This document shows, piece by piece, positions 3,606 to 63,172 of a DNA stretch of 64,000 bases. Under the pieces are notes generated by a model that had not been told where the DNA came from, ran no database searches, and saw only the letters and a list, made by a program, of their open reading frames with translations. The position numbers and the translations under genes are program-made. Origin of the DNA: Lingula anatina (lineage: Eukaryota; Animalia; Brachiopoda); NCBI GenBank assembly GCA_051362555.1, contig CM120647.1, positions 1,674,001 to 1,738,000 of the forward strand. The letters are read 5' to 3'. Positions within the stretch are counted from its first letter, which is position 1; each line of letters opens with the position of its first letter.

Positions 3606-3648
3606 CTTCAGGGATTTAGGTCACTTGGTCACTTCAAGAATTTAAAAC

Positions 3649-29731: not shown

Positions 29732-30856
29732 TTATGTGGTGCTGGTCTTGGATTTGCCCCCCAGTCTAGGTGGTGTAGGAGGTGGTGATTGCTCTGTCAC
29801 CTGCCCTAACTTTGGTTCCAACCCAGGAGGATGTGGTGCTGGTCTTTGTTTACGTACATTTGAACCCAGTAGATGAGGTTTAGGTGGGAGTCTAGGAGGT
29901 GGTGACTGTACTATCACCTCTCCTAACATGGCTTCCAACCCAACAGTAGATATCTTACCAGGGCTGTAGGATATCTGTGCTGGTGTGTCTGGAGTTGGTA
30001 CTGGCATTTTCTCCATCGCTGTCAGTCTCTCTGTCAGAGCCTTAGTGTGAAGCATGATGTCAGAATCAGAGCCATTTGTTATAAGTTCCTGGGCAAATCT
30101 GCAGGCACTCTGTAAGGAGGCATGGTGAAGTTCGAAGGTGTCCTTGTTTGCCTCTGTTTGCTTCTTACTGATATTACGAGCATATTTTACTTCAGATATC
30201 AGTTTTTGCTCTCTCTCTTCAACCAGTCTATGGATAGATTGAGTCTGTTCTTTAATTTTATTGATAGTGGCTTCCGTATTGATTTCCTCCAATTCATTGG
30301 TTCTGTCCTTGGCAACTGCTTCTTTAAACATGTCTAGTTTTGTTTCAGTTTTCATAAGGGCAGCTTTAATCTTTTCTCGATTGCTATTTGCAACATCTTC
30401 AATGGGCACAATACCATGTCTGTAATGCTCTTTTGGTATACAGTCACCACAAACAACGGCATCATCGTCTTCACAGTAGTATTTCAATTCATTTGTAGGA
30501 TGCTTCTCACATTTGCTCATCATTTCTGCAATAGCTTTCGCCACACTATGCACATCAGTGTCTTTGATTGGGGATGAGGCATCATGTTGCTGTTGCTGAC
30601 TGAGAAGATCTTTTGCCTTATGAATAAGATGATTCTTTTTAAGTGCAAATCCTTTTCTTGGAAATTGTATCTCTTCCCTACAAAGGGGACACAAAAATGT
30701 CCTGTCCCGAGATACAGTTCGCGTAGCATGGTTACATATACAACCATAGCAAAATGTATGGTAGCAAGGCAGCACACGGGGGTCCTCATACTCTCCCAGA
30801 CAGATGCTACATGTCAAAAGATTATCTGTGAAAGCTGCTGCCAGCGCCTCGGCCAT
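29732..30856 (-). CDS. TRIM protein copy 1 (RING, B-box, coiled coil, short Pro-rich tail; 374 aa), TRIM2/3-like, NHL truncated
   Basis: [39 protein letters not shown]...CPLCR (C3HC4 RING); [32 protein letters not shown] (B-box 2); coiled coil; stop just before the NHL region. Single coding exon. Confidence 0.85.
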   Translation of the reverse strand: MAEALAAAFTDNLLTCSICLGEYEDPRVLPCYHTFCYGCICNHATRTVSRDRTFLCPLCREEIQFPRKGFALKKNHLIHKAKDLLSQQQQHDASSPIKDTDVHSVAKAIAEMMSKCEKHPTNELKYYCEDDDAVVCGDCIPKEHYRHGIVPIEDVANSNREKIKAALMKTETKLDMFKEAVAKDRTNELEEINTEATINKIKEQTQSIHRLVEEREQKLISEVKYARNISKKQTEANKDTFELHHASLQSACRFAQELITNGSDSDIMLHTKALTERLTAMEKMPVPTPDTPAQISYSPGKISTVGLEAMLGEVIVQSPPPRLPPKPHLLGSNVRKQRPAPHPPGLEPKLGQVTEQSPPPTPPRLGGKSKTSTT

Positions 30857-30925
30857 ATTGAACTTTTTAGTGACGTCATATTTACTCCGTAACACTTGTT
30901 CCGTGGCCCTTGGCAGAGGTTCACT

Positions 30926-30996
30926 GATCACCTTTATATATAAGGTAAGGTACATATCACTGAGCATAAAAGGAAAACTAAACAAAACGAAATAGA
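30926..30996 (-). promoter_or_regulatory. Putative TRIM core promoter: TATA box plus IRF/ISRE-like GAAA/AAAACGAAA repeats (conserved in copies 1-4)
   Basis: On -, TATATAAAG lies ~80 bp upstream of the ATG and a TGACGTCA palindrome ~15-20 bp upstream of the ATG. On +, ggaaaactaaacaaaacgaaatag at 30972-30995. Motif match only. Confidence 0.35.
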
Positions 30997-32153
30997 ACGC
31001 ACTGATAAAACACACAAAAAAACTCTAACATAAAACACGTAGTCAACTTACAAACTAAATTTAACCCTTATATATTTTATATAATAGGCCCGCGCTAGAG
31101 GGAACGTGACATTTGGTCTCTTCTGTCAACACAAGTACCTGTATGATACTGCGAAATCTTACTACAATAAACAGTACTGCGCATAGATATAAGAGAGATC
31201 GGTGATATAAATCTAAAGTATACAAATGATCTTTGCATCATATTAGGGTAGGATAAATAATAGCTTTTGTTTGGGAGTCTCTCAAGATACAGGTGATTTT
31301 AGAGGCAAAATGAGTTTAAAAGTTCATTTCTGATGAGAAATTTGAGCTAGGAGCCTTCTTTAGGTCGCTAATTTCACTATTTTTGGAAACGCATACAAAG
31401 CATGTGTACTACATGTCTACATAAACACTTAATGCTGTAAATTTGTGCATGTACTATATACCTGTATTGAATAGGGTTGGATGAAGAACAAATCTTTGAT
31501 AAGTAAGTGTTTTCTACAGCAGGAAATTATGCTAAACACACATGTGCAACTATTTTTTTCACAACAAAAATGACGATTTTCAAAAATGGCAGACAATACG
31601 CCCTAACAAAAGTTTCAACATCGACAACTAAAGGACATAGTTTGTAATATACATTTTCTTATGTTTTTAGGGTTGTAAAATATATTTTGCTCATGTTAAC
31701 ACTGCCATTGTTACATTTTAAATGGAGTTTTGTTACCTTGATGGTTGTCAGTTTACTGTCAACCTTGACGGAAGAGTCAGATCTCGGTTAATCAGAACGA
31801 GGAGTGATAAGAGATCGCAAGTTTTGCTGCATGTGAATTATGAAGAAGAATCAGAATTATCTTAACCTCAAGCAACCAAAGAGTGTATGTCTTTAAATTA
31901 TTAAAAAAGGCGGATGGAATATTTTTTTCTGCATGTAAGAACCTGGGGAAGCAATCACTATCATGAACTGAAGACCAGCAAAGAAGTTGCCAAGGAAATA
32001 TGCAACGTCTTTGAGAACATTTACAACAGAATAACTGCATATTAGGGCTACCTATAAAAATATTGTGCAGGCGTATCGGACTTCAGTGCGCAACCAACTG
32101 GACTTCCAGACGGACGCATAACATTTCTTCCTACGCGGTTTTTTCATTTTTTG

Positions 32154-33194
32154 ATGGAAACCTTCAATATTTTTTCTCAAGAAGAAGACGCCCTACTGCG
32201 GCCAGGGGTGGGTATTACCCCTTCTGAATCGAGAAACATTTTCTCAGCGATTGATGTCTTTAAGGGCACTATGGAGGCTGTTCCCTCCAATATACAGAAA
32301 ATGGGCGAGGCTTGGGCGACAATGGCAGCCGAAAAGAAACCCGCCAAACGCTCTGCGACGGTCTTTGAAGAAGGAGAGGAAGAAGACGACTCCTCCTGCT
32401 CCGATATTGACATTCCTATGGACCATCAGGACGAGGACGACGTTGCGAGCCTCCTCAATGCCGCGGGAAAAAGTGACAGTACTGCTGTCTTAGAAGATGT
32501 AAGCGCATCATTTGAAGATGAGGAGGATACTGGGCCGAATATAAGCGCTAAATTGGCTGACATTGCCAATAAAGCTTTTACTAAGCCACTGGCGACAGAA
32601 AAAGTAAAAAAGAAGAAGGAGTTGTATTTGAGGCCACAGAACTGTGACAAAGTCACAGTGCCTCGGGTTAACAAAGACATTTGGCGCAGAATGCGCAAAC
32701 AGAACTATCTCAAGAAAAGAGATCTGAGATTTTCTTCCATCCAAAGTGCTATCACTAAAAGCACCTTTGCAATGTTATCCGTTGCGGAAAACTTGCTAAG
32801 TAAACCCGCCGAGCCTTCGACAGAACAATCCATACGCGCATGTTTAGATGCCGTATTTCTGCTCGGGCATGCGAACACGTCAGTGTCGCTACAAAGGCGG
32901 GAATTACTACGGCCCGTGCTTAAAAGCGATCACGCCGGGATATGCGATGCCAACATACCCGTAACCTCTTTACTATTTGGTGACGACCTGCCAAAATCCG
33001 TCAAAGATATACGGGAAATGGACAAGGTGGGCCGGGACGCGGTCCAACCGTACCAGCCAAAAAACTGGAAGAGGCCGGGGTACAACCCCCGGCACGGACA
33101 GGGCTACAATTCCCGAGAGGGACACCCCCAGGACTGGTTCAACAAACCAGGGCCGAGTGGCGTGAGAAGGGGAAAGAAGTTCAAGAAAGAGTAG
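32154..33194 (+). CDS. DIRS gag-like ORF1 (346 aa), open in copy A
   Basis: RPQNC..VTVPRVNKDIW, D.RFSSIQ, LLGHANTSVSLQRRELLRP and LLFGDDL motifs typical of DIRS ORF1; lies directly upstream of RT. Confidence 0.8.
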   Translation: METFNIFSQEEDALLRPGVGITPSESRNIFSAIDVFKGTMEAVPSNIQKMGEAWATMAAEKKPAKRSATVFEEGEEEDDSSCSDIDIPMDHQDEDDVASLLNAAGKSDSTAVLEDVSASFEDEEDTGPNISAKLADIANKAFTKPLATEKVKKKKELYLRPQNCDKVTVPRVNKDIWRRMRKQNYLKKRDLRFSSIQSAITKSTFAMLSVAENLLSKPAEPSTEQSIRACLDAVFLLGHANTSVSLQRRELLRPVLKSDHAGICDANIPVTSLLFGDDLPKSVKDIREMDKVGRDAVQPYQPKNWKRPGYNPRHGQGYNSREGHPQDWFNKPGPSGVRRGKKFKKE

Positions 33195-33202
33195 AACCCA
33201 CT

Positions 33203-35320
33203 ATGAAGGTGAGGACTCTAGAAACATTTAAAAGTGAATTTTCACTGTTTATTTTAGATGCCGTTAAAAAGGCTAACTATGATATTCTTACTTTTGAAGG
33301 AGGCAGATTACGGTATTTTATAGACGAATGGAGATCTATAACCTCCGACAAAGAAATATTAAGAATAATTAAAGGCATGGAACTAGATTTCCGTTTAATG
33401 CCAGTGCAGGCAAGGCCAATAAGGGAGGCAAAATTCAATGCCTCTGAAACCGTAGAAATAGAAAAGGAAATACAGAGATTATTACAAAAGAAAATTATAG
33501 TTGAATCTCCAATGGAAATTGGTCAATTTATTTCACCAATTTTTTTGAGAATGAAAAAGAGCGGGAAATACCGACTCATTTGTAATCTAAAAGAGTTAAA
33601 TGAGTGCATTGATAATCATCATTTTAAAATGGATTCATTGCAAACAGCAATTAAGATGATGGCGCCTAACTGCTGGCAATCAAGTATTGATCTCTCTGAT
33701 GCATATTATTGCATATTTGTCTCTGAAAAATATCAAAAATACTTAAAATTCCAATGGAAATCAAAGTTATACCAGTACAGGGCGTGTCCAATGGGCCTCA
33801 ATATAAGCCCCAGGGTCTTCACCCGGGTTCTTAAGCCAATTTTCTCTTGCTCAAGGAAAAGCGGGTATCTCTTCGAAGTATATATAGATGACACATATTT
33901 ACAAGGAGAGAGCATTGAAGCTTGCAACAAAAACGTCAAAGCTACGATCGAAATGCTTACTCAATGTGGCTTTGTCATAAATCCGGAAAAATCGGTGTTT
34001 CAAGCTACACAATCTATAGAATTTTTAGGATTTTATTCTGAACTCTGTAGATATGACTGTGGCAATATCTGACTCCAAAAGTTGCAAGATAATTGATCTT
34101 TGTCATTCTTTCTTGAAGAAAACGTCTCCAACTAAAAGAGAATTGTGTACCATTATAGGAAATTTAATTGCGACCTTCCCCGCCGTTCCTAATGGGAAAC
34201 TTTTCTACAGACAATTGGAAAATGATAAAATAGCAGCTTTAAAAGATGCCAAAGGAAACTTTGATGCAAAAGTTAATATATCAGATATGGCTGTAAGTGA
34301 TTTAAGGTGGTGGATTAGTTGCTTAAAAGGCTCAAAAGCACCAGTCACAGTAAGAAACCCCGATCTGAATCTTGAAACAGATTCCAGTACAATGGGGTGG
34401 GGTTGTTACTGTCGAGAATTGAACATCAAAACAGGTGGTCAGTGGAAACCTTCAGAGTCTGATCATCATATAAACTTTCTCTAGCTTCAGGCAGCTCAGT
34501 TTTCACTTCAGGCACTCTGTAACGATAAGAAAAACATTCACATCAAACTATTGATGGATAACACCACTGCCGTTGCTTACATAAGAGAGCAGGGGGGCAG
34601 TAGATCTTTGGAATGTAATGCAATTGCAAGAAATATTTGGATGTGGGCTACCGAAAGATCCATTTGGCTAAGCGCATCACATATACCGGGTATAGTTAAT
34701 GTCAAAGCAGATTATGAAAGTAGACATTTCCACTGTGAGAAAGAGTGGATGTTGAATTGCTCTGTCTTTAACAAAGCCCTTGAATTACTACAATTTGTAC
34801 CAACCATTGATATGTTTGCCACTAGGCTTAATCATCAATTAGACAAATATGTCTCATGAAGACCTGAACCTCAATCTTTTGCTGTTGACACTTTTTCAAT
34901 CCCATGGGGAAATTTATCATTTAACTGTTTCCCACCTTTCAGTTTGATGCCGGCAGTACTACAAAAGATGACATTAGAGCAAGTAACAGGGATAGTTGTG
35001 TTTCCCAACTGGCCGACTCAGTCGTATTACACAACAGCGCTGAACATGTTAATTGCGCCACCAATTTATGTTCCCAAGCGGAAAGACCTTCTTCAACTAC
35101 CGGGAACGAAGGAAATTCACAAAATATGGGACACGTTAAATCTGCTCATATGCCTCTTATCAGGAGATCATTCGAGGAGCGAAAGATTCCGCAGAATGTT
35201 GCCGAGATACTGTTATCCTCTTGGAGGCCAAGCACATCTAAGCAATATGACTGTTATCTTAAACGATGGCACGAGTACTGTAATAGACGGAAAATTAATC
35301 CGTTTCATACTACCGGTATA
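33203..35320 (+). pseudogene. DIRS pol (RT - RNase H - adenine methyltransferase-like), disrupted
   Basis: GGRLRYF..W, SIDLSDAYY, PMGLNISPRVFT, YIDD, IEFLGF; RNase H TDSSTMGWG..HINFL*L; IDMFATRLNHQL..FPPFSL. Frameshift at ~34032, TAG at 34482-34484, TGA at 34857-34859. Confidence 0.9.
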
Positions 35321-36297
35321 TAGCGTCTTTATGCCCCGTTTGTTGCATTGTACCTCGATTTTAAGAACTTTTTTTGAAAAAGGAAAGATGCCAAAAATGC
35401 CACAACTATAACAATTTCAAATTCATTTTTAATCTATCCATTAATTAATTAATCATTAACTATCTTTTTCTAGTTGTGAGGTGAGCTTCTAAGAAGATTT
35501 CTCAAAAACTACACTCTGCTGGGATTCTTGCTAAGTGCAATTAGTAGAATCAGTTTAAGTGTCTGACATGTCTCCCCAATCCAGATACAATAACTCCCTA
35601 GCTGCCCAAGGAGGCGTATTAAAATAATTTAAATCGAAAATGATGTCAAAGACAGGAAAAAAGAGACTGAAGTGATCTATAGTTTTATTTAAATGAACAC
35701 AATATAAAAAGATAACAGCTAGTTGATTCATTGAATCGACTGTTCAATTGTTACAGTGCTAAGATGATTACAATGGTGATTGGACTTTATTTCTTTTTTC
35801 TTAGTTGGGGGGGGGGGGGGGAATAAATGTTATTCACGGATATTGAAAGATTAAACCTAGCTTTCTGTTATGCTGTGAATTACTGTTAATTCGTACTTGA
35901 GTATATAATTTGCTTATATTTATTAAAGAGACTTCAAATTATGTATCATTTTCAGACTCTACGCGTCAGCAATGAAGTACATGCAGTCATCATAAGATGC
36001 TATATTACATTGTACCCCGTGAAATGTCATAAGTTTGCAATCGAAAGCTCGATCTTTTCAATGGGGGCAGAAACTGTGAATTTCAAGAACAGTGTACCGA
36101 TATTTTTAACTAATAATTTCTTAAAATTAGAACATTCCTCTTGGATGGCAGGGAAAAAAATAAAAAGCAGGCTACTACAGTGTATATAATTATATTCTAT
36201 GCAGTAAAAGCTGAAATACAGAAATATAATCTTTGTGAATATAAAATTACGTATCTGCAAAATGGATAATTTTGCCCATTGAAAATATTGAGTCATA

Positions 36298-36520
36298 GGG
36301 TGCTTTCCCAGAGATTTAGATCGATCTAAAGATTAAGTTTTAGATCAACCTAACTCCCTGGGGGTTCAGGCTAAATTGCAGTCAGCCGAGTGGACAACAT
36401 AGTTAATTACCCCCTTACAGCTTTTAGTAGGCGGGACAGACGCTTAAGCCGGCCAAGCTGACAGTAATCTAGTGAGACTCCCCAGAGGGATAGATCGATC
36501 TAAAATCTATGGAAATGGGG
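36298..36520. mobile_element. Small MITE-like insert with imperfect TIRs in the TRIM 3' flank (also ~44183-44406, ~49595-49817, ~60047-60269; absent from unit 1)
   Basis: ttcccagagatttagatcgatcta ... tagatcgatctaaaatctatggaa inverted ends; unit 1 lacks this block at ~28850. Confidence 0.6.
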
Positions 36521-36616: not shown

Positions 36617-37325
36617 TCAGTATAAGTACTGATAGGTCTTAACTTCTCTGCTGCCACCAACTGGCCAGCAGGGTTGATGGCTATTGGTACTGGGGCTTCA
36701 ACCCATCATTTCTAGTGGTAATGTATCTAATGAACTGTCCCTGTGGACTCAGTGCCACTATCTTGTGGTTACCATAGTCAGCAATGAAGATGTGACCATA
36801 GCTGTCTGTGCACACTCATGTGGTAACCACAGCTGACCATCACCACTGCCCTCTGTGCCATACTGGTACAGCTGACCACCAGTAGGAGACAGCATACGTA
36901 CACTTCGCCAGTCTGATATCACAATGTTACCATCCACCCTGTTCGCTGTGATGTACACTGAGTAAAAACAAATACTGAGTGGAATGGTGTTCAAGAGCAG
37001 CCCACTAAATGTGAAAAAAGATTTCCTTATTTTGTCACAAACCAACACATAACCTTATTTGTTCGGTGTGATACCAAATGGATCCTCAAGTTTACAGGGA
37101 CCCTCTGGTGGAGTATTCTGACACATTTGTCACCCGATGATGTTATGTACAGGTGACCAGTCTGTGACACAGCCACGTCTCAAATGGATAAATAAGTCTT
37201 TTTCGTCAACAGTAATAATCACGTGCTGCCCAGCTACCCTGTATGACCAGTCCAGTTCTAAATGTGTCAGTTTTATCATTTTGTGTTTTATGAGTGAGGA
37301 ATTCACACATTCTGCATTTTCTTAA
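36617..37325 (-). pseudogene. Decayed NHL remnant, copy 2
   Basis: ITANRVDGNIVISDW..LSPTGGQLYQYGTEGSGDGQL fragments with several frameshifts, downstream of the TRIM stop. Confidence 0.8.
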
Positions 37326-37382
37326 AAGGTGGAGGATCTTGGATTTGTCCACAGGTTAGGTAGAAGTCGAGGAAGTGGTAGT

Positions 37383-38711
37383 CTAGGACCGTGGAGGCAG
37401 AAGTGGAGGTGGTGGCACATTCAGACGTGGAGATTGAGGCAGAGGTGGAGGTGGGGGCACATTCAGACGTGGAGGCTTAGGCAGAGGTGGAGGTGGGGGC
37501 ACATTCAGACGTGGAGACTGAGGCAGAGGTGGAGGTGGGGGCACATTCAGACGTGGAGACTGAGGCAGAGGTGGAGGTGGTGGCACATTCAGACGTGGAG
37601 ACTGAGGCAGAGGTGGAGGTGGGGGCACATTCAGACGTGGAGATTGAGGCAGAGGTGGAGGTGGGGGCACATTCAGACGTGGAGGCTGTGGCAGAGGTGG
37701 AGGCGCAGGTACATACCGACGTGGAGGCTGAGGCAAAGGTGGGGGCGGAGGTGGTGCTGCCTGCGCGGTCACCTGCCCTAACATAGCTTCCAGTGCAGCA
37801 GCAGATATTATACCAGGGCTGTAGGATATCTGTGCTGGTGTGTCTGGAGTTGGTACTGGCATTTTCTCCAGTGCTGTCAGTCTCTCGGTCAGAGCCTTAG
37901 TATGAAGCATGATGTCAGAATTAGAGCCATTTGTTACAAGTTCCTGGGCAAATCTGCAGGCACTTTGTAAGGAGGCATGATGAAGTTCGAAGGTGTCCGT
38001 GTTTGCTTCCTTCTGCTTTTTACTGATGTTACAAGCAAATTTTACTTCTGAAATCAGTTTTTGCTCTGTAATTTCAACCAGTTTATGGAAAAATTGAGCC
38101 TGTTCTTTAATTTTGTTGATGGTATCTTCCGTGTTGACCTCCTCCAATTCATTGGTTCTGTCCTTGACAACTGCTTCTTTAAACATGCCCAGTTTTGTTT
38201 CAGCTTTCCTAAGGACAGCTTTAATCTTCTCTCGATTGCTATTTGCAACATCTTCAATGGGTACAATACCATGTCTGTAATGCTCTTTTGGTATACAGTC
38301 ACCACAAACAACGGCATCATCGTCTTCACAGTAGTATTTCAATTCATTTGTAGGATGCTTCTCACATTTGCTCATCATTTCTGCAGTGGCTTGCGTGACA
38401 CCATGCACATCATTGTCTTTGATTGGGGATGAGACTTCATGCTGCTGTTGCTGACTGAGAAGATCTTTTGCCTTATGAATAAGATGATTCTTTTTAAGTG
38501 CAAATCCTTTTCTTGGAAATTGTATCTCTTCCCTACAAAGGGGACACCAAAATGTCCTGTCCCGAGATACAGTTCGCGTAGCATGGTTACATATACAACC
38601 ATAGCAAAATGTATGGTAGCAAGGCAGCACACGGGGGTCCTCATACTCTCCCAGACAGATGCTACATGTCAAAAGATTATCTGTGAAAGCTGCTGCCAGC
38701 GCCTCGGCCAT
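37383..38711 (-). CDS. TRIM protein copy 2 (RING-B-box-CC plus 8 x 14-aa polyproline repeats; 442 aa)
   Basis: Open from MAEALAAAF to PPRS*; repeat [14 protein letters not shown]. Confidence 0.88.
   Translation of the reverse strand: MAEALAAAFTDNLLTCSICLGEYEDPRVLPCYHTFCYGCICNHATRTVSRDRTFWCPLCREEIQFPRKGFALKKNHLIHKAKDLLSQQQQHEVSSPIKDNDVHGVTQATAEMMSKCEKHPTNELKYYCEDDDAVVCGDCIPKEHYRHGIVPIEDVANSNREKIKAVLRKAETKLGMFKEAVVKDRTNELEEVNTEDTINKIKEQAQFFHKLVEITEQKLISEVKFACNISKKQKEANTDTFELHHASLQSACRFAQELVTNGSNSDIMLHTKALTERLTALEKMPVPTPDTPAQISYSPGIISAAALEAMLGQVTAQAAPPPPPPLPQPPRRYVPAPPPLPQPPRLNVPPPPPLPQSPRLNVPPPPPLPQSPRLNVPPPPPLPQSPRLNVPPPPPLPQSPRLNVPPPPPLPKPPRLNVPPPPPLPQSPRLNVPPPPLLPPRS
37386..37760. repeat. 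Coding 42-bp minisatellite, 8 units plus partial
   Basis: (gaggcagaggtggaggtgggggcacattcagacgtggagact)n on +. Confidence 0.95.
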
Positions 38712-42900: not shown

Positions 42901-43212
42901 CCAAGTGGCCGACTCAGTCGTATTACACAACAGCGCTGAACATGTTAATTGCGCCACCAATTTATGTTCCCAAGCGGAAAGACCTTCTTCAACTACCGGG
43001 AACGAAGGAAATTCACAAAATATGGGACACGTTAAATCTGCTCATATGCCTCTTATCAGGAGATCGTTCGAGGAGCGAAAGATTCCGCAGAATGTTGCCG
43101 AGATACTGTTATCCTCTTGGAGGCCAAGCACATCTAAGCAATATGACTGTTATCTTAAACGATGGCACGAGTACTGTAATAGACGGAAATTAATCCGTTT
43201 CATACTACCGGT
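39950..43212 (+). mobile_element. DIRS copy B, defective
   Basis: Colinear with copy A. gag is frameshifted (~40355 insertion, ~40538 deletion) and RT is frameshifted at ~41540. It shares the RNase H TAG and the MTase-region TGA with copy A, and has the same 3' truncation. Confidence 0.9.
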
Positions 43213-45210: not shown

Positions 45211-45268
45211 AAAGGTGGAGGATCTTGGATTTGTCCACAGGTTAGGTAGAAGTTGAGGAAGTGGTAGT

Positions 45269-49913: not shown

Positions 49914-50620
49914 TCAGTATAAGTACTGATAGGTCTTAACTTCTCTGCTGCCACCAACTGGCCAGCAGGGTTGATGGCTATTGGTACTGGGGCTTCAACC
50001 CATCATTTCTAGTGGTAATGTATCTAATGAACTGTCCCTGTGGACTCAGTGCCACTATCTTGTGGTTACCATAGTCAGCAATGAAGATGTGACCATAGCT
50101 GTCTGTGCACACTCATGTGGTAACCACAGCTGACCATCACCACTGCTCTCTGTGCCATACTGGTACAGCTGACCACCAGTAGGAGACAGCATACGTACAC
50201 TTCGCCAGTCTGATATCACAATGTTACCATCCACCCTGTTCGCTGTGATGTACACTGAGTAAAAACAAATACTGAGTGGAATGGTGTTCAAGAGCAGCCC
50301 ACTAAATGTGAAAAAAGATTTCCTTATTTTGTCGCAAACTAACACATAACCTTATTTGTTCGGTGTGATACCAAATGGATCCTCAAGTTTACAGGGACCC
50401 TCCGGTGGAGTATTCTGACACATTTGTCACCCGATGATGTTATATACAGGTGACCAGTCTGTGACACAGCCACGTCTCAAATGGATAAATAAGTCTTTTT
50501 CGTCAACAGTAATCACGTGTTGCCCAGCTACCCTGTATGACCAGTCCAGTTCTAAATGTGTCAGTTTTATTATTTTGTGTTTTAGGAGTGAGGAATTCAC
50601 ACATTCTGCATTTTCTTAAA
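49914..50620 (-). pseudogene. Decayed NHL remnant, copy 4
   Basis: Near-identical to copies 2 and 3. Confidence 0.8.
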
Positions 50621-50676
50621 AGGTGGAGGATCTTGGATTTGTCCACAGGTTAGGTAGAAGTCGAGGAAGTGGTAGT

Positions 50677-52287: not shown

Positions 52288-53716
52288 ATTGAACTTTTTA
52301 GTGACGTCATATTTACTCCGTAACACTTGTTCCGTGGCCCTTGGCAGAGGTTCACTGATCACCTTTATATATAAGGTAAGGTACATATCACTGAGCATAA
52401 AAAGAAAACTAAACAAAACGAAATAGAACGCACTGATAAAACACACACAAAAAACTCTAACATAAAACACGTAGTCAACTTACAAACTAAATTTAACCCT
52501 TATATATTTTATATAATAGGCCCGCGCTAGAGGGAACGTGACATTTGGTCTCTTCTGTCAACACAAGTACCGTATAGCTAAAAAAAAACACGACTATTGG
52601 TACGCGTATGATCGATAACTGATTTAATTCTCGTAAGATTACCATCCGCCCCCTTCCTTATGAATAGGTATTACTTTATTAATACAATGCAACCGTCGTG
52701 TAGCCGCATGTTAGAAGACAATGTTTGATTACGCACAGCAGTAGGAGGCCGCTACCCCTTCCCAGCAAGGAGTCAACACAGCAGCGCGTAACCCGGGGTT
52801 AATTAGGGGTTATTAGCTGTCCACTTATGATCGGTATTGTTCGTCTTGATTGCAGCACACTTCCTACTCACTATTGGTTCGACCGCCTCTTCTTTAAATG
52901 CTCTCTCAAACCTTTCCTCAGTCAGCCGAGAATGGAAACACGTTTATCTGCCGATAAACTACGTCGTTGATGTATTATTCGGCATCATTCTACAGTGGGT
53001 CATAAGGCTCTATCTATCATTTTTTTCGTCTCGCATTTTACCAGATTAAGCTGACGCTCGAAAACTAAATTTAATGAATAATTTTCTCACGTGCACCGTA
53101 TCCAGCTAATTTTACGACAATAACTACCACGGCACCTCCGCCATTTGCAATTGTAGACGAACCACGTGTTTCCAACTGATAGGCCAATACAACTATGCCA
53201 GACCCATTGTACGAGAAAAGACGTTTATATTTAATGAATTAAAAAACATTTGAGGATTGCGATTTTCTATTGATATACTATCGATGGTATCCCTGTATTA
53301 AATCATCCACTGCTACCCCCTCTTTTGTAGTGTAGCATGACTCGTATCACAAGATGGCCTTAGAAATGAAGTAAGACAGGCCTACACTCTGATAGTTTTT
53401 AGTCTATTATTAACCCTAATGTCGTTGCTTGTCATTCATTCTAGAACTCTCTGAGCCATCGCAAAATTATTTGCCAGGACATTTAAAGGCTACTTCTTAA
53501 CGGATTTTTTTTTATTTGCACTGCGTCCAAAATGTTCGAGGACGTCTCTGTCGTTATCGCCGTTTCTCGGACGCAGTCCCAGACAAAGGATCGGAAAGTT
53601 TCTAAATAAAAGAACTTATAAATGCTGCCACTAGCCATCCTTATTGTTCCTAAGTAAAGAGAGGCGATAATGATCTTTTCTTTCTTCTAGCTTAGTCTGT
53701 CGACTAAAATGAACAA

Positions 53717-54780
53717 GGTTATGCCTACAATGCAACCACCTATTATTACGACCATTAATGAGGTTCTTTGCTACACTCCCTTTCTTCATGATCGCGAAAC
53801 CAGTGGGGTGCTGTGTTTTAAATATATAAAAAAGGGTCTCGCGAGGTGAAGCTATAATAATGAAATAAAAAAATCCAATGAATAGGCATATCTAATAAAC
53901 CATGAAGCACGTAGTCTAGGCCTCTTCTTTGACCGACATCACATTTTTACATTCTTTGTTTTAATAAGAGGACGAACGTGGTCTAATTTGTCTTTTGGTG
54001 GTGTGTGATTTTGCTCGAAGTAGCGGAGTCAAGTAAATCGGTGATTTACCGTTGGTAAGAGTAGCGATCATCGCTCCTGCGTCCTCATAGATTACTTTCT
54101 AATCACCCGTAATTAACGCAGTCAGGAATAAGCGCTCAAATAGGGGTTTTTGTATCAGGGAAAATTTTAGTATTAATCTTATGTTATTATGTATCTGTAT
54201 TATGTAATCATGTAACTCATTTTCCCAAGGCAACCACCAATTATGACGACCATTAATGAAGTTCTCTGCTACACTCTCTCCTCATGATCACTTGCTCGAT
54301 CGTGAAACCCTGGAGGTGTTGTAGGGCCTATATATATTTGGGGTAGTTTACTATAGCATGCTACACTCTCCTCATGATCAGCTGCTCGATCGTGAAATCT
54401 GGAGTGAAACCCATGGTTTATCTAACAATGGTTTAAATAAATAAAAAGGGTGTCACGGAGGTGAAGCTGCTTAACTCATAAGAATAACGAACGAAAAAAT
54501 ACGATGAACATTTAATAAACCACGAAGCACGTATGTTTTGACCGTTATCGCCTTTTTTACATAAGATGTCTCAACAAGAAGGCAGATGTAGTCCAATTTG
54601 TCTTTTGTTGGTGATTCTGCTTCAGGTGGCTGAGATTAGTTGATCGGTGATGCACCGTTGGTAAGAGTAGCAATCATCACTCCTGCGTTCTAACGGATTA
54701 CTTTCCAACCCCCCATAATTAACGCAGCCAGGAATAGGCGCTGAAATAGGGGGTATTAAATCAGGAATTAATTTTTGTAA
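53717..54780. repeat. Diverged ~0.5-kb tandem duplication inside the 4.9-kb element
   Basis: gcaaccacc.attat.acgaccattaatga at ~53732 and ~54230; ccgttggtaagagtagc at ~54049 and ~54655; aacgcag.caggaata at ~54115 and ~54721. Confidence 0.8.
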
Positions 54781-56724
54781 TTATGTATCCGTAAAATAAG
54801 AATCGTAACATTATCACGTATTTTTCCTGATGGAAAATATCATAATTTATGCACACTGATCGAATTATAAAGAAAATCTCCAGATGTAAACAAAGGTCAG
54901 TCAAGTATCACTCATCCCAGGCTGCAGGGCAGATATAGACAGAGAGAATTGAATGAAGCGCCAGTGATCTGGCAACCCTACAAATTTGTCATAATGATTC
55001 ATGGGCAAACAATAGAAGCATGAAATTAACACCTTTTACAGTGTGAATGACGACACCTTATGAGGCTTTTGTTTCTTCCCCTGGGTTGGTATTACAAAGT
55101 AAGTATGTTGACGTAAGTGTGTTGACTTTTGCATGTTCAAAGGAACAATGGAAATGTCATTTCAAAACAAAGAGCCACATTTCCCTACTTAGGTGGCCAA
55201 AATATTGTCAATGAAACGCAAAAAAGACAAAATCACCAGCTGTTACTGATTGAGTCTAACTCAAATGCAAAAAGGTACGCACAGCGACAAAGCGCTATTG
55301 TAAACAATGACCCGACGATGAGATCAATAAGATGTATTAAATGACTATTTGTACTACAAAACTGTACCCCTGCCCCTACTTGTATATTATTACACACACA
55401 AGGCCACCCTATACCAGAGTTACAGATTGATTTTTCAGTACACAGTCTCTTGCACTGAAGAAAAATACTCATAATTAATTTGCGGCCCTAGTAGAGGGTC
55501 TTCTCTCGCTTTCTCTCAAATCAAAATAAACTAGCAAACATGAAAATTGGCAAAATGTATTAGAATGTAGTGTTGCGAACCCTTTAAACAAGGTGAATGG
55601 TAATATGCACGTTTAGACAAATTTTAATTTTAATTTCAATTAAATTTAATTTTAATTAAAATTTATATTACCAAAATTAGTAAATGTCGTTTGCGTCATG
55701 TATCAATATTTTTGCGCATAATAGTACCTACGTTATAAACATTCAGCAAAGATATTTGGAAGGCCGCTCTTTTGTTGTTTATATCAAAGGAAAACTATCT
55801 GATACCCATCGTATCAATCATTATACCATGATAAAGCACAGGCTTCAAACAACTGCGCATGTGCGAAAAGTGCGCTGTTTGAAATAAACAAGTTGGTGAA
55901 ATTGACAAAGACCGTCTGGTTGATTTTATTTCATTACCTCTCTGGTGTCTTTTTGAAAATTTATATTAGAAATGTTCTATTGATTTTATGTTGTAAAAAG
56001 TAAATCCGTCGGAATTCCTTAGAAAAACATTTATTTTACCTTCATTTTAAGGGGATTCCCCTTGTATTTATAGTGTTATATGTGGCCCCAATGGGGATTT
56101 TCACACCTCCCCTACTCTTGATTAATAAAATTCTTCACCTGGAGGATTGTAAATTACATTGCAAAATACATTGAAAATCGTAGGAAGGTTAATTGCAGAT
56201 AATGCTGCGAGGATATTCTTAACAGTGGGGGAACTCGGCCAATATAAAATTTTTAACTTCGTTTTACGATTTTGGAGCGCCTGTTCTAATTTTTGAAAGC
56301 GAGGCAATGGAACCAAACAATGCGATACAATTTGTAATCTCGTAAAAATTGCTATTTTTATATAAAGGTTATAGCATGGAGTACATCGAAATGCGACTTG
56401 TTTATTATTATGATCTTAAATAATAATTAATATAAAACAAACGATATAATACGTTCTTAACGTTAGCCTATTTATTAGCTTAATTGATTTTTTTTCGTAT
56501 TTGGAGATTAAAAACACAAAAGTTGTCTGGTTTCATATCGAGGCACTGCGTTTCGTTCGTGTGCTCCATGATAAGAGATTAGCATACTAATTTATGTCCC
56601 CAGTAATAATAACTTTAACAATAACAACAAACCTTCCTACTGTGCTTTCCGTTGCAAAAACAATTAGCCACGACTGTTTTATATATTAATAGATATTTAT
56701 AATAATGACAATTTCAAAATCTTC

Positions 56725-56805
56725 AAAAGTACCAACAGGGACACGAACTCCCGTCGGGTAGGTTGCAGACGACTCAACGACGTTAACCGTTGTTCCACCA
56801 ATTCT
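56725..56805 (-). ncRNA. Degenerate tRNA-derived (SINE-head-like) sequence
   Basis: On -: GAATTGGTGGAACAACGGTTAACG (A-box-like)...GGGAGTTCGTGTCCC (B-box-like)...TTTT. Confidence 0.3.
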
Positions 56806-58409
56806 ATTGTTCACGCATGTAGATATCGACAGCTCTGTATTGCTGCGCATGCCGAAGCTTTGCGGAAATTGCCGAAGGCTAGGAAAATTCTTCAAAATAT
56901 ACTTTTATTACATTTAATCAAATCCAGACATCTCCCACTGCCCTGAGGTATGGCTAAAGGCTTTCAGTTGTCATCAGACTTTGTAATTTGGGAGAAAAAA
57001 GTGAAACAGTAACTTCTGGTGATGAATAATAGGTAATAGTGCTGCAAGGTGTTGTTTTTTATCCCTGATGTACGAGTAGCTTTTTCTACAGTTTCTATAA
57101 TTCTCTTAACGTATGAAAATATGCAGGTTTTCTGATATAATAAGACTTTGATAAAATCAAAACCAATAATACTTTTAAAGTCGAGAGTCGGGATAAATAT
57201 CGGCAAGGTGGAGATATGTCCCGCCGGCGCTTCCGCAACAGCAAGACTGAAGGACGCAAGTTACAAAGCAAAACATGTTTAGTCAAGTTAAAGACTTAAT
57301 TACCGGTTTAACTTCGGCGGCAGTGCCTACTGCTGTGAGCAACATGCGCTGTCCATCGTAATCCCCCTATCATTAACACTGTCGGGGACGTGCGCATTAG
57401 CGCGTCTGATGTAGACAGCGTGTGCTATTAAAGTGACCGGGGACTTATTAGCTATAGTGTACCTGTATGATACTGCGAAATCTTACTACAAAAAACAGTA
57501 CTGCGCATAGATATAAGAGAGATCGGTGATATAAATCTAAAGTATACAAATGATCTTTGCATCATATTAGGGTAGGATAAATAATAGCTTTTGTTTGGGA
57601 GTCTCTCAAGATACAGGTGATTTTAGAGGCAAAATGAGTTTAAAAGTTCATTTCTGATGAGAAATTTGAGCTAGGAGCCTTCTTTAGGTCGCTAATTTCA
57701 CTATTTTTGGAAACGTATACAAAGCATGTGTACTACATGTCTACACAAACAGTTAATGTATAGTAACTTTGTGCATGTATATACCTGTATTGAATAGGGT
57801 TGGATGAAGAACAAATCTTTGATAAGTAAGTGTTTTCTACAGCAGGAAATTATGCTAAACACACATGTGCAACTATTTTTTTCACAACAAAAATGACGAT
57901 TTTCAAAAATGGCAGACAATACGCCCTAACAAAAGTTTCAACATCGACAACTAAAGGACATGTAAAGGTTTGTAATATACATTTTCTTATGTTTTTAGGG
58001 TTGTAAAATATATTTTGCTCATGTTAACACTGCCATTGTTACATTTTAAATTGAGTTTGGTTACCTTGATGGTTGTCAACCTTGACGGAAGAGTCAGATC
58101 TCGGTTAATCAGAACGAGGAGTGATAAAAGATCGCAAGTTTTGCTGCATGTGAATTATGAGGAAGAATCAGAATTATCTTAACCTCAAGCAACCAAAGAG
58201 TGTATGTCTTTAAATTATTAAAAAAAGGAGGAGGAATATTTTTTTTGCATGAAAGAACCTGTGGAAGCAATCACTATCATGAACTGAAGACCAGCAAAGA
58301 AGTTGCCAAGGAAATGTGCAATGTCTGGATGTCCGAGAATATTTCCTCTCTTTTAGAACATTTACAACAGAATAACTGCATATTAGGGCTACATATAAAA
58401 ATATTGTGC

Positions 58410-59115
58410 AGGCGTATCGGACTTCAGTGGAAATATTTGGATGTGGGCTACCGAAAGATCCATTTGCCTAAGCGCATCACATATACCGGGTATAGTTAAT
58501 GTCAAAGCAGATTATGAAAGCAGACATTTCCACTGTGAGAAAGAGTGGATGTTGAATTGCTCTGTCTTTAACAAAGCCCTTGGATTACTACAATTTGTAC
58601 CAACCATTGATATGTTTGCCACTAGGCTTAATCATCAATTAGACAAATATGTCTCATGGAGACATGAGCCTCAATCTTTTGCTGTTGACGCTTTTTCAAT
58701 CCCATGGGGAAATTTATCAGTTTACTGTTTCCCACCTTTCAGTTTGATACCGGCAGTACTACAAAAGATGACATTAGAGCAAGTAACAGGGATAGTTGTG
58801 TTTCCCAACTGGCCGACTCAGTCGTATCACACAACAGCGCTGAACATGTTAATTGCGCCACCAATTTATGTTCCCAAGCTGAAAGACCTTCTTCAACTAC
58901 CGGGAACGAAGGAAATTCACAAAATATGGGACAAGTTAAATCTGCTCATATGCCTCTTATTAGGAGATCGTTCGAGGAGCGAAAGATTCCGCAGAATGTT
59001 GCCGAGATACTGTTATCCTCTTGGAGGCCAAGCACATCTAAGCAATATGACTGTTATCTTAAACGATGGCACGAGTACTGTAATAGACGGAAATTAATCC
59101 GTTTCATACTACCGG
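58410..59115 (+). mobile_element. DIRS copy D, same internal deletion as copy C
   Basis: Same junction at ~58429/58430. Confidence 0.88.
58441..59097 (+). CDS. Second copy of the open 218-aa DIRS methyltransferase-like ORF
   Basis: Translation identical to 47985-48641 in the ORF track. Confidence 0.5.
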   Translation: MWATERSICLSASHIPGIVNVKADYESRHFHCEKEWMLNCSVFNKALGLLQFVPTIDMFATRLNHQLDKYVSWRHEPQSFAVDAFSIPWGNLSVYCFPPFSLIPAVLQKMTLEQVTGIVVFPNWPTQSYHTTALNMLIAPPIYVPKLKDLLQLPGTKEIHKIWDKLNLLICLLLGDRSRSERFRRMLPRYCYPLGGQAHLSNMTVILNDGTSTVIDGN

Positions 59116-60365
59116 TATATAGCGTCTTTATGCCCCATTTGTTGCATTGTACCTCGATTTTAAGAACTTTTTTTGAAAAAGGAAAGATGCCAACAATACC
59201 ACAACTATAACATTTTCAAATTCATTTTTAATCTATCCATTAATTCATTAATCATTAACTATCTTTTTCTAGTTGTGAGGTGAGCTTCTAAGAAGATGTC
59301 TCAAAAACTACACTCTGCTGGGATTCTTGCTAAGTGCAATTAGTAGAATCAATTTAAGTGTCTGACATGTCTCCCCAATCCAGATACAATAACTCCCTAG
59401 CTGCCCAAGGAGGCGTATTAAAATAATTTAAATCGAAAATGATGTCAAAGACAGGAAAAAAGAGACTGAAGTGATCTATAGTTTTATTTAAATGAACACA
59501 ATATAAAAAGATAACAGCTAGTTGATTCATTGAATCGACTGTTCAATTGTTACAGTGCTAAGATGATTACAATGGTGATTGGACTTTATTTCTTTTTTTA
59601 GTTGGAGGGGGGGGTAAATGTTACTGTGGATTACTGTTAATTCGTACTTGAGTATATAATTTGCTTATATTTATTAAAGAGACATCAAATTATGTATCAT
59701 TTTCAGACTCTACGCGTCAGCAATGAAGTACATGCTGTCATCAAAAGATGCTATATTACATTGTACCCCGTGAAATATCATAAGTTTGCAATCGATAGCT
59801 CGATCTTTTCAATGGGGGCAGAAACTGTGAATTTCAAGAACAGTGTACCGATATTTTTAACTAATAATTTCTTAAAATTAGAACATTCCTATTGGATGGT
59901 AGGGAAAAAAAATAAAAAGCAGGCTACTACAGTGTATATAATTATATTCTTAGCAGTAAAAGCCATACAGAAATATAATCTTTGTGATTATAAAATAACG
60001 TATCTGCAAAATGGATAATTTTGCCCATTGAAAATATTGAGTCATAGGGTGTTTTCCCAGAGATTTAGATCGATCTAAAGATTAAGTTTTAGATCGACCT
60101 AACTCCCTGGGGGTTCAGGCTAAATTGCAGTCAGCCGAGCGGACACCATAGTTAATTTCCCCCTTACAGCTTTTAGTAGGCGGGACAGACGCTTAAGCCG
60201 GCCAAGCTGACAGTAATCTAGTGAGACTCCCCACAGGGATAGATCGATCTAAAATCTATGGAAATGGAGTGTTAAACATATGGATCAAATTTCTTCAACC
60301 TGCCATGTTACCGTACAGCTAATTATGAAGATCTGTATAACAATGTCTTTGCGTGAATAGCATAT

Positions 60366-61070
60366 TCAGTATAAGTACTGATAGGTCTTAACTTCTCTGC
60401 TGCCACCAACTGGCCAGCAGGGTTGATGGCTATTGGTACTGGGGCTTCAACCCATCATTTCTAGTGGTAATGTATCTAATGAACTGTCCCTGTGGACTCA
60501 GTGCCACTATCTTGTGGTTACCATAGTCAGCAATGAAGATGTGACCATAGCTGTCTGTGCACACTCATGTGGTAACCACAGCTGACCATCACCACTGCCC
60601 TCTGTGCCATACTGGTACAGCTGACCACCAGTAGGAGACAGCATACGTACACTTCGCCAGTCTGATATCACAATGTTACCATCCACCCTGTTCGCTGTGA
60701 TGTACACTGAGTAAAAACAAATACTGAGTGGAATGGTGTTCAAGAGCAGCCCACTAAATGTGAAAAAAGATTTCCTTATTTTGTCGCAAACCAACACATA
60801 ACCTTATTTGTTCAGTGTGATACCAAATGGATCCTCAAGTTTACCGGGACCCTCCGGTGGAGTATTCTGACACATTTGTCACCCGATGATGTTATGTACA
60901 GGTGACCAGTCTGTGACACAGCCACGTCTCAAATGGATAAATAAGTCTTTTTCGTCAACAGTAATCACGTGTTGCCCAGCTACCCTGTATGACCAGTCCA
61001 GTTCTAAATGTGTCAGTTTTATCATTTTGTGTTTTAGGAGTGAGGAATTCACACATTCTGCATTTTCTTA
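60366..61070 (-). pseudogene. Decayed NHL remnant, copy 5
   Basis: Near-identical to copies 2-4. Confidence 0.8.
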
Positions 61071-61128
61071 AAAGGTGGAGGATCTTGGATTTGTCCACAG
61101 GTTAGGTAGAAGTCGAAGAAGTGGTAGT

Positions 61129-63171
61129 CTAGGACCGTGGAGGCAGAGGTGGAGGTGGGGGCACATTCAGACGTGGAGGCTGAGGCAGAGGTGGGGGCAC
61201 ATTCAGACGTGGAGATTGAGGCAGAGGTGGAGGTGGGGGCACATTCAGACGTGGAGATTGAAGCAGAGGTGGAGGTGGGGGCACATTCAGACGTGGAGAC
61301 TGAGGCAGAGGTGGAGGTGGGGGCACATTCAGACGTGGAGGCTGAGGCAGAGGTGGAGGTGGGGGCACATTCAGACGTGGAGATTGAGGCAGAGGTGGAG
61401 GTGGGGGCACATTCAGACGTGGAGATTGAAGCAGAGGTGGAGGTGGGGGCACATTCAGACGTGGAGATTGAAGCAGAGGTGGAGGTGGGGGCACATTCAG
61501 ACGTGGAGGCTGAGGCAGAGGTGGAGGTGGGGGCACATTCAGACGTGGAGATTGAAGCAGAGGTGGAGGTGGGGGCACATTCAGACGTGGAGATTGAAGC
61601 AGAGGTGGAGGTGGGGGCACATTCAGACGTGGAGATTGAGGCAGAGGTGGAGGTGGGGGCACATTCAGACGTGGAGACTGAGGCAGAGGTGGAGGTGGGG
61701 GCACATTCAGACGTGGAGGCTGAGGTAGAGGTAGAGGTGGAGGTGGGGGCACATTCAGACGTGGAGGGTGAGGCAGAGGTGGAGGTGGTGGCACATTCAG
61801 ACGTGGAGGGTGAGGCAGAGGTGGAGGTGGGGGCACATTCAGACGTGGAGACTGAGGCAGAGGTGGAGGTGGGGGCACATTCAGACGTGGAGACTGAGGC
61901 AGAGGTGGAGGTGGGGGCACATTCAGACGTGGAGGCTGAGGTAGAGGTAGAGGTGGAGGTGGGGGCACATTCAGACGTGGAGGGTGAGGCAGAGGTGGAG
62001 GTGGTGGCACATTCAGACGTGGAGGGTGAGGCAGAGGTGGAGGTGGGGGCACATTCAGACGTGGAGACTGAGGCAGAGGTGGAGGTGGGGGCACATTCAG
62101 ACGTGGAGACTGAGGCAGAGGTGGAGGTGGGGGCACATTCAGACGTGGAGGCTGTGGCAGAGGTGGAGGCGCAGGTACATACCGACGTGGAGGCTGAGGC
62201 AAAGGTGGGGGCGGAGGTGTTGCTGCCTGCGCGGTCACCTGCCCTAACATAGCTTCCAGTGCAGCAGCAGATATTATACCAGGGCTGTAGGATATCTGTG
62301 CTGGTGTGTCTGGAGTTGGTACTGGCATTTTCTCCAGTGCTGTCAGTCTCTCGGTCAGAGCCTTAGTATGAAGCATGATGTCAGAATTAGAGCCATTTGT
62401 TACAAGTTCCTGGGCAAATCTGCAGGCACTTTGTAAGGAGGCATGATGAAGTTCGAAGGTGTCCGTGTTTGCTTCCTTCTGCTTTTTACTGATGTTACAA
62501 GCAAATTTTACTTCTGAAATCAGTTTTTGCTCTGTAATTTCAACCAGTTTATGGAAAAATTGAGCCTGTTCTTTAATTTTGTTGATGGTATCTTCCGTGT
62601 TGACCTCCTCCAATTCATTGGTTCTGTCCTTGACAACTGCTTCTTTAAACATGCCCAGTTTTGTTTCAGCTTTCCTAAGGACAGCTTTAATCTTCTCTCG
62701 ATTGCTATTTGCAACATCTTCAATGGGTACAATACCATGTCTGTAATGCTCTTTTGGTATACAGTCACCACAAACAACGGCATCATCGTCTTCACAGTAG
62801 TATTTCAATTCATTTGTAGGATGCTTCTCACATTTGCTCATCATTTCTGCAGTGGCTTGCGTCACTCCATGTACATCAGTGCCTTTGATTGGGGATAAGA
62901 CTATATGCTGCTGTAGTTGACTGAGAATATCTTTTGCCTTTTGAATAAGATGATTCTTTTTAAGTGATAGTCCTTCTCTTGGAAATTGTATCTCTTCTGT
63001 ACAAAGGGGACACGAAAATGTCCTGTTTCGAGATCGCGTAGCATATTCCCATATACAACCATAGCAAAATGTATGGTAGCAAGGCAGCACACGGGGGTCT
63101 TCATACTCTCCCAGACAGATGCTACATGTCAAAAGATTATCTGTGAAAGCTGCTGCCAGCGCCTCGGCCAT
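61129..63171 (-). CDS. TRIM protein copy 5 (RBCC plus 25 polyproline repeats; 680 aa)
   Basis: Open ORF; divergent RING region ([20 protein letters not shown]); preceded by a splice-acceptor-like tgtgttttacatcgtcAG|TATG. Confidence 0.88.
61132..62225. repeat. Coding 42-bp minisatellite, 25 units plus partial
   Basis: Includes 48-bp and 36-bp variants and an internally duplicated 5-unit block (QSP,QSP,HPP,HPP,LPQPP) x2. Confidence 0.95.
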
Positions 63172-63172
63172 A

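What the first reader, a model, noticed from the sequence alone, without database searches (positions are those of the whole stretch)
29732..63171. TRIM E3-ligase array that replaced its NHL propeller with an expanding polyproline minisatellite (0, 8, 11, 15, 25 repeats)
Seen: five RING-B-box-coiled-coil ORFs are fully open, while the NHL domain just downstream has stops and frameshifts in every copy. In copies 2-5 the ORF ends in ([14 protein letters not shown])n from a 42-bp VNTR; n rises along the array, and all unit-length variants (36, 42, 48 bp) keep the frame. Established: the TRIM C-terminal domain sets substrate specificity, as in TRIM5alpha versus TRIMCyp. PxxPxR and PPLP match SH3 and WW ligand motifs, and polyproline runs bind profilin as in formin FH1. 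Inference: a TRIM subfamily whose recognition end is a length-tunable multivalent polyproline tail. It might capture SH3/WW/EVH1/profilin proteins of host or pathogen for ubiquitination, or act as a dominant-negative partner of full-length TRIM-NHL paralogs. I do not know of this architecture being described.
Basis: partly seen in the sequence, partly recalled or inferred. Interest (0 to 1): 0.85.

Follow-up and report, generated by a model that had tools for sequence, protein, structure and literature searches.

The report
Truncated brachiopod TRIMs with polyproline tails
A lamp-shell (Lingula) ubiquitin-ligase gene lost its recognition domain, grew a proline-rich repeat tail and was recently copied in tandem; the front half is likely still under selection, but the tail is more likely a tolerated repeat expansion than a new recognition device.

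Summary
The anatomy is real. Five open RING-B-box-coiled-coil ORFs each sit before a broken NHL domain, and four end in a 42-bp minisatellite read as ([14 protein letters not shown])n. They belong to the Lingula anatina TRIM2/3-like expansion, and RefSeq already holds a shorter-tailed version (XP_013404078.1). The five copies are two lineages: copy 1 and copy 5, with copies 2-4 as recent unequal-crossover chimeras that share the same 8-10 NHL lesions and carry a DIRS-like passenger. The repeat is the family's own proline-rich linker, expanded in frame; a frameshift at its end creates the stop. Zero RBCC lesions against 8-10 in NHL (p about 0.002, uncorrected) and dN/dS about 0.3 suggest selection on RBCC, also in tail-less copy 1. 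Nothing shows selection on the tail: 36/48-bp variants follow its internal hexamer, the rising order has a 1-in-12 chance, and PxxPxR is absent from the core unit. Five RNA runs gave at most about one read or pair each on the subfamily-specific stretch. Verdict: likely a weakly expressed RBCC-only (class V-like) TRIM with a tolerated polyproline tail; a profilin/WW-recruiting ligase is possible (about 15%) but unsupported.

The parts
29732..30856 (-). Copy 1 (lineage A): RING-B-box-coiled coil plus a duplicated Pro-rich linker, 374 aa, no minisatellite
28941..29731 (-). Copy 1 NHL remnant, 5 lesions of its own
32154..35400 (+). DIRS-like retrotransposon fragment (gag-like ORF, RT/RNase H, methyltransferase-like part, start of a recombinase-like ORF), co-duplicated passenger; the DIRS label and parts other than RT are from recalled motifs
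   Evidence: RVT_1 hit; frames; duplication
36617..37382 (-). Copy 2 NHL remnant (lineage B, 8-10 shared lesions)
37383..38711 (-). Copy 2 ORF, 442 aa; 5' part copy-1-like, 3' part identical to copy 5
37394..37742 (-). 42-bp minisatellite, 8.3 units
40035..43295 (+). Second DIRS-like copy, frameshifted
44503..45268 (-). Copy 3 NHL remnant
45269..46723 (-). Copy 3 ORF, 484 aa
45280..45754 (-). 42-bp minisatellite, 11.3 units
47976..48745 (+). 5'-deleted DIRS-like tail
49914..50676 (-). Copy 4 NHL remnant
50677..52287 (-). Copy 4 ORF, 536 aa; RBCC identical to copy 3
50688..51318 (-). 42-bp minisatellite, 15.3 units (two of 36 bp)
52573..57458 (.). 4.9-kb insertion about 285 bp upstream of the copy 4 start, absent from copy 3
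58432..59201 (+). 5'-deleted DIRS-like tail, 1 substitution from the previous one
60366..61128 (-). Copy 5 NHL remnant
61129..63171 (-). Copy 5 ORF (lineage B, own upstream region with an acceptor-like AG just before the ATG), 680 aa
61140..62217 (-). 42-bp minisatellite, about 25 units (one of 36 bp, two of 48 bp)

Best explanation
These are NHL-less members of the Lingula TRIM2/3-like family whose RING-B-box-coiled coil likely remains a weakly or conditionally expressed, selected protein, and whose polyproline tail is likely a tolerated slippage expansion of the native linker rather than a selected recognition module. History: (1, shown) two neighbouring paralogues, A (copy 1) and B (copy 5), each lost NHL; in B a frameshift at the end of the linker makes the stop. 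(2, shown) B's linker, a degenerate (CCTCCA)x7 unit in frame with RBCC, expanded as a 42-bp minisatellite. (3, inferred from mosaic sites and flanks) unequal crossing-over between the A and B RBCC regions made copies 2-4, each with A-type upstream DNA, B-type tail and dead NHL, and the DIRS-like fragment between them. (4, inferred) RBCC was kept by purifying selection after NHL loss. (5, inferred, untested) the likely job is that of an RBCC-only TRIM: pairing through the coiled coil with itself or with full-length TRIM-NHL paralogues and damping or ubiquitinating them, with the tail as a disordered passenger that may bind profilin or WW domains incidentally.
For: Tree: copies 1-5 and P0001 form one clade (97/89) sister to P0002 among Lingula paralogues. 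Lesions: 8-10 in NHL-B and 5 in NHL-A, none in 936 nt of RBCC; chance placement 0.001-0.002 for B and 0.048 for A, or 0.024 and 0.155 if only the coiled-coil half is counted. Family-conserved positions changed: 1 of 62 in RBCC against 6 of 43 (plus 5 deleted or shifted) in NHL for copy 2, Fisher p 0.018. Copy 1 vs copy 5: coiled-coil nonsynonymous share 0.53 against 0.76 neutral, 0 of 1000 simulations; RBCC dN/dS 0.37, NHL 0.49. No RBCC indel listed in DNA run X1. Tail-less copy 1 shows the same pattern. Linker duplications or repeats occur in P0002, P0016, P0022, P0027, P0029. Mosaic: copy 2 matches copy 1 in the first ~260 nt and copy 5 after ~315 nt; upstream DNA of copies 1-4 is 94-99.6% alike and unlike copy 5's. 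A SPRY-less TRIM5 acts as dominant negative (PMC2731049, passages).
Against: Expression is close to nil in 5 of 5 RNA runs laid: about one pair (X12), none (X15, X16), none at 37894-38148 (X18), about one read (X19) on the coiled-coil stretch, and no read in the first 236 nt behind the stop in X12, X15, X18. Among copies 2-5 the nonsynonymous share (0.69-0.70) is not below neutral (0.76, p 0.2). The A-B dN/dS includes time before NHL loss. The lesion p-values are uncorrected: the family has at least 37 models, 25 of them incomplete, 7 with the opposite pattern (RBCC gap, whole NHL), so one lopsided case is less surprising. RING and B-box look homogenised between A and B, so conversion may have helped keep the frame. 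No step of the molecular mechanism was tested.
Confidence: 0.48

Rival explanations
1. Dead or dying pseudogenes of a birth-and-death family. RBCC is open only because it was refreshed by conversion or crossing-over with paralogues, or by luck; the tail has no product.
For: Near-zero RNA. 25 of 37 Lingula models are incomplete, in both directions. Neutral-looking changes among copies 2-5. Mosaic RBCC. A 4.9-kb insertion just upstream of copy 4.
Against: The coiled coil is not homogenised (synonymous differences 23.7 of 103 sites, near the NHL value) yet has no lesion. No intact-NHL donor above 79% identity was found. Full-length paralogues also give few reads in these runs (RING bins under 10-fold), so the silence is weak evidence. 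RefSeq lists the protein as a coding isoform.
Confidence: 0.32
2. One reading: the tail is a selected, length-variable multivalent ligand that recruits profilin, WW or SH3 proteins to the RING for ubiquitination.
For: 7-19 PPP[PA]PLP and 8-21 PPLP per tail; the unit core VPPPPPL resembles the mDia1 FH1 profilin ligand IPPPPPL (PMC7864067, passages). No stop or frame break in 50 full units. Kept in a second assembly. Only 1 of 198 retrieved relatives has such a tail.
Against: Only 1 of 126 single changes in the unit gives a stop; 13 codon variants (6 synonymous, 7 not) are too few to show constraint; +/-6-bp variants follow the hexamer. PPPPPLP follows directly from (CCTCCA)n with one change. 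PxxPxR does not scale with length. Copy 1 kept RBCC with no tail. No subfamily transcript was shown.
Confidence: 0.15
3. The five-copy array or the long repeat counts are an assembly artefact, for example two haplotypes laid in tandem.
For: Copies 3 and 4 have identical RBCC and 99.6% alike upstream DNA. The RefSeq protein set gave one such model. No laid contig spans a stretch.
Against: Copies 3 and 4 differ in repeat make-up, in 12 NHL substitutions and a 3-bp indel, and by a 4.9-kb insertion. DNA run X1 holds copy-2-type, copy-3/4-type and copy-5-type 5' pieces. The architecture itself does not depend on copy number.
Confidence: 0.05

Closest known systems
Lingula anatina TRIM3-like isoform X2, XP_013404078.1 (P0001)
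   Same: 95% identical RBCC, same tail and same end (PPRS), no NHL.
   Different: 410 aa, tail of about 7 units; a different mosaic of the same variable sites; annotated only by name.
Lingula TRIM2/3-like RBCC-NHL expansion (class VII-like; e.g. P0002, P0007, P0008)
   Same: RBCC 50-79% identical; same linker position; NHL remnant 62-69% identical to P0007/P0008 when read through.
   Different: NHL untranslated here; linker 98-370 aa instead of about 20-60.
Class V TRIMs, above all TRIM8
   Same: [quoted passage not shown]
   Different: Independent origin from an NHL ancestor; one B-box; tail is a young minisatellite, about 50% Pro; no homology to TRIM8 claimed or tested.
C-terminally truncated TRIM5 (SPRY-less)
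   Same: RBCC without recognition domain, dominant negative on the full-length protein (PMC2731049, passages).
   Different: Engineered mutant in that paper; natural short TRIM5 isoforms are recalled, not read; nothing comparable tested here.
Formin FH1 tracts; Cbl RING plus proline-rich region
   Same: Repeated xPPPPPL cores as in mDia1 FH1 (PMC7864067, passages). Cbl couples a RING to an SH3-binding Pro-rich region (recalled).
   Different: No FH2, no TKB domain; the likeness is a low-complexity motif match, not homology.

Membership tests
TRIM/RBCC | N-terminal RING with C3HC4 ligands | tested here: met
   PF00097/PF13445 above cut-off in 3 of 3 copies scanned; ligands intact in 5 of 5
TRIM/RBCC | B-box after the RING | tested here: met
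   PF00643, 42-43 bits vs cut-off 24.1; ligands in 5 of 5
TRIM/RBCC | Coiled coil after the B-box | tested here: inconclusive
   Region aligns without gaps to full-length TRIM paralogues; no coiled-coil or structure prediction was run
TRIM/RBCC | E3 ligase activity | not testable with these tools
   Needs an assay
Class VII TRIM-NHL | Translated NHL propeller | tested here: not met
   Stop before NHL and 5 or 8-10 lesions; no RNA joint from RBCC to NHL in 5 runs, at very low depth
Class VII TRIM-NHL | Descent from an NHL-bearing TRIM | tested here: met
   Remnant in place; nested among NHL-bearing paralogues
Class V TRIM (RBCC, no known C-terminal domain) | RBCC with no classified C-terminal domain | tested here: met
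   Pfam finds only RING and B-box; definition from PMC10445537
Class V TRIM (RBCC, no known C-terminal domain) | Expressed protein-coding gene | tested here: inconclusive
   At most about one read or pair per run in 5 runs; RefSeq model exists
Formin FH1-type profilin tract | Repeated runs of 5 or more Pro with flanking aliphatic residues | tested here: met
   7-19 PPP[PA]PLP per tail (pattern recalled)
Formin FH1-type profilin tract | Adjacent FH2 domain | tested here: not met
   None in the ORFs
Formin FH1-type profilin tract | Binds profilin | not testable with these tools
   Needs pull-down; a predicted complex would pass by likeness to solved structures
Multivalent SH3 class II ligand array | PxxPxR in each repeat unit | tested here: not met
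   2 sites per tail regardless of length; none in the core unit

The most novel reading that the evidence does not exclude
A TRIM ligase that swapped a folded recognition domain for a minisatellite-encoded, FH1-like polyproline array whose valency (about 7 to 25 sites) varies between copies and individuals and sets how much profilin or WW-domain protein is captured and ubiquitinated.
Probability: 0.15. Interest if true: 0.75.

Novelty: new variant of a known kind. Interest (0 to 1): 0.33.

Why it matters
As most likely read, it is a clear natural case of C-terminal domain loss with a retained RBCC, and of a coding minisatellite arising in a hinge, inside a fast-turnover invertebrate TRIM-NHL family: useful to people who study how TRIM architectures change, not surprising. 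If the tail proved to be a selected ligand array, it would show a TRIM gaining a new substrate-capture mode from a tandem repeat, with specificity carried by linear motifs rather than a folded domain, and allelic repeat length would give a direct test of valency in ubiquitination.

Tried and rejected
No whole genome is held, so paralogue DNA and branch-specific dN/dS were out of reach. Run search: no RNA holder listed; not used as evidence. 5 of 9 offered RNA runs and 2 of 11 DNA runs were laid; both stretches left out the body of the repeat. The two bins over the linker and first repeat unit are empty in RNA and also in DNA run X1, so they say nothing. Most laid RNA reads were partial matches from other paralogues or a high-copy element (80-88% run on unlike in four runs; the single X16 read too). 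Search for longer forms (848-2420 aa) that might be a spliced RBCC-NHL isoform: none, weak evidence. Search with the tail alone: only P0001. Atlas: best score 0.84, unnamed, lead only. ARAGORN and Rfam: nothing. Earlier findings: none in 3 look-ups. Papers: no description of this gene found (open-licence PMC and bioRxiv only; subscription papers on Lingula immunity were not searchable); PMC8195603 passages were irrelevant; no supplements were read. A second Pfam scan failed on a frame with stops and was not repeated, so only the RT part of the DIRS-like element has a family hit. Rejected as evidence for selection: frame-keeping unit lengths, absence of stops in the repeat, the rising count, and 'five open ORFs' (dead NHL remnants of copies 2-5 also gained no new frameshift since duplication). 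Contig depths in X1 hint at fewer than five copies but are not copy numbers.
Full report
What is there. The window holds five minus-strand ORFs with RING, B-box and the region that is coiled coil in TRIM proteins. The family-conserved start is MAEAL, giving 374, 442, 484, 536 and 680 aa. Copies 2-5 end in a 42-bp minisatellite of 8.3, 11.3, 15.3 and 24.3 units; inner units are 42 bp (50), 36 bp (3) or 48 bp (2), and tails are about 50% Pro. An NHL remnant follows each stop.

Source and family. The best 37 of 59 hits are Lingula anatina proteins, nearly all named TRIM2/3-like; other animals fall to about 25% identity. The top hit, P0001 = XP_013404078.1 (410 aa, 95%), has the same RBCC, a tail of about 7 units and the same end, so the architecture exists in another assembly and is in RefSeq unremarked. 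Copies 1-5 and P0001 form one clade, sister to P0002 (30 rows, of which 25; hits with large RBCC gaps left out). The family turns over fast: of 37 models, 12 are whole, 13 have whole RBCC with NHL gapped or absent, 7 the reverse, 5 both (the search favoured whole RBCCs, and a gap in a model need not be a lesion). Only 1 of 198 retrieved relatives has a 60-residue window of 35% Pro or more.

Two lineages, not five. Copies 2-5 carry the same 8 NHL lesions (10 against a second reference); copy 1 has 5 different ones. Copy 1's NHL and downstream flank are only 70-77% alike to those of copies 2-5, while its upstream DNA is 94-95% alike to that of copies 2 and 3; copy 5's upstream matches none. Copy 2's RBCC follows copy 1 for about 260 nt and equals copy 5 after about 315 nt; copies 3 and 4 are identical to each other. 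I infer two old neighbours, A (copy 1) and B (copy 5), with a DIRS-like fragment between them, and unequal crossing-over inside RBCC producing copies 2-4. The unit is about 7.9 kb at 96%. The '0' of copy 1 is therefore outside the series, and four values in order have a chance of 0.083.

Origin of the tail. Intact paralogues have a 20-60-residue linker here, often Pro-rich, and several have duplicated it; P0029 has about five 17-residue repeats there with NHL still fused. In lineage B the old frame resumes right after the last unit ([19 protein letters not shown]...) and matches the paralogues' linker end; a frameshift at that point gives the stop. The unit is seven degenerate hexamers of CCTCCA type, so 36- and 48-bp variants are what slippage yields with or without selection. 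Only 1 of 126 single-base changes makes a stop, and the 13 codon variants (6 synonymous) are too few to show constraint. PPLP (8-21 per tail) and PPP[PA]PLP (7-19) scale with length; PxxPxR does not (2 per tail, patterns recalled). The core resembles the mDia1 FH1 profilin ligand IPPPPPL (PMC7864067, passages), but follows almost directly from a (CCTCCA)n run.

Is RBCC kept by selection? For: no lesion in 936 nt against 8-10 and 5 in about 820 nt of NHL; chance placement 0.001-0.002 (B) and 0.048 (A), or 0.024 and 0.155 for the coiled-coil half alone. Family-conserved positions changed: 1 of 62-63 in RBCC, 6-7 of 43 in NHL-B (p 0.007-0.018); for copy 1, 1 of 62 and 2 of 47 (p 0.58); the 15 long paralogues range 2-20 and 1-28. 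A versus B: RBCC dN/dS 0.28-0.37, NHL 0.49-0.51; coiled-coil nonsynonymous share 0.53 against 0.76 neutral, 0 of 1000 simulations. Against: that ratio includes time before NHL loss; among copies 2-5 the share is 0.69-0.70 (p 0.2); RING and B-box look homogenised; the p-values are uncorrected for a family of dozens; and the dead NHL remnants also gained no frameshift since duplication (7-13 substitutions per pair). Net: selection on RBCC after NHL loss is more likely than not (about 0.65, my estimate). It shows weakly in tail-less copy 1 as well, which points at RBCC and not the tail.

Other samples. DNA run X3 has a contig over the stop and start of the remnant (45003-45283, 4 differences, one 3-bp gap). 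X1 lists no indel in RBCC and holds copy-2-, copy-3/4- and copy-5-type 5' pieces. Whether either is independent of the window's source is not known. Five of nine RNA runs were laid (three studies, 1.1-1.8 Gb each, tissues unknown). On the coiled-coil stretch X12 gave about one pair, X15 and X16 none, X18 none at 37894-38148, X19 about one read; reads at 99% or more numbered 1 (X18), 2 (X19), 0 (X16). No read lay in the first 236 nt behind the stop in X12, X15, X18, and no RNA joint linked RBCC to NHL. Paralogues gave under 10-fold over the RING, so the whole family is quiet in these samples and the result is weak evidence of silence.

Mechanism. Shown: NHL loss, in-frame linker expansion, intact zinc ligands, mosaic duplicates. 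Inferred: selection on RBCC; low or inducible expression. Untested: an RBCC-only protein that pairs through its coiled coil with itself or TRIM-NHL paralogues and damps or ubiquitinates them, as SPRY-less TRIM5 acts on TRIM5alpha (PMC2731049, passages), carrying the tail as a passenger (0.48). Rivals: pseudogenes (0.32), selected profilin/WW-recruiting tail (0.15), array artefact (0.05).

Against what is known. By architecture it meets class V (RBCC, unclassified C-terminus; PMC10445537, passages), and TRIM8 already joins RBCC to a proline-rich no-domain tail (PMC7533350, passages). By descent it is a TRIM-NHL that fails the NHL test. A minisatellite-encoded polyproline tail on a TRIM was not found in seven paper searches (listings only) nor among 198 relatives. 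New variant of a known kind; interest 0.33.

Noticed in passing
window 5284-27650: A tandem satellite with a 1384-bp unit (about eight units at 99.5%, flanked by more diverged units) holding tRNA- or SINE-like pieces by eye; ARAGORN and Rfam found nothing.
   Followed up: partly
window 2183-3620 (-): Broken ORF pieces that look like a Bel/Pao-type gag with a zinc knuckle (label recalled; no Pfam hit at 0.01).
   Followed up: no
window 32154-35400, 40035-43295, 47976-48745, 58432-59201 (+): DIRS-like retrotransposon lacking most of its recombinase-like ORF, copied with the TRIM units; the last two copies share a 5' deletion.
   Followed up: partly
window 52573-57458: 4.9-kb insertion upstream of copy 4 with short, imperfect inverted ends at a TA, probably a non-autonomous DNA transposon.
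   Followed up: partly
window 44182-44411 (and the same place behind copies 2, 4, 5): Very high-copy short element with inverted-repeat joints just behind the old NHL stop; it takes most laid RNA reads.
   Followed up: no
window 38720-38751: A 31-bp piece just upstream of the copy 1-4 start, containing TGACGTCA, is shared with another transcript in runs X18 and X19.
   Followed up: no
window 63172-63200 (-): Copy 5 alone has a pyrimidine run and AG just before its ATG, like a 5'-UTR intron acceptor; copies 1-4 have a TATA-like run upstream instead.
   Followed up: no
P0029 residues ~299-395: An unrelated 17-residue tandem repeat (about five units) in the same linker of another Lingula paralogue that keeps most of its NHL.
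   Followed up: partly
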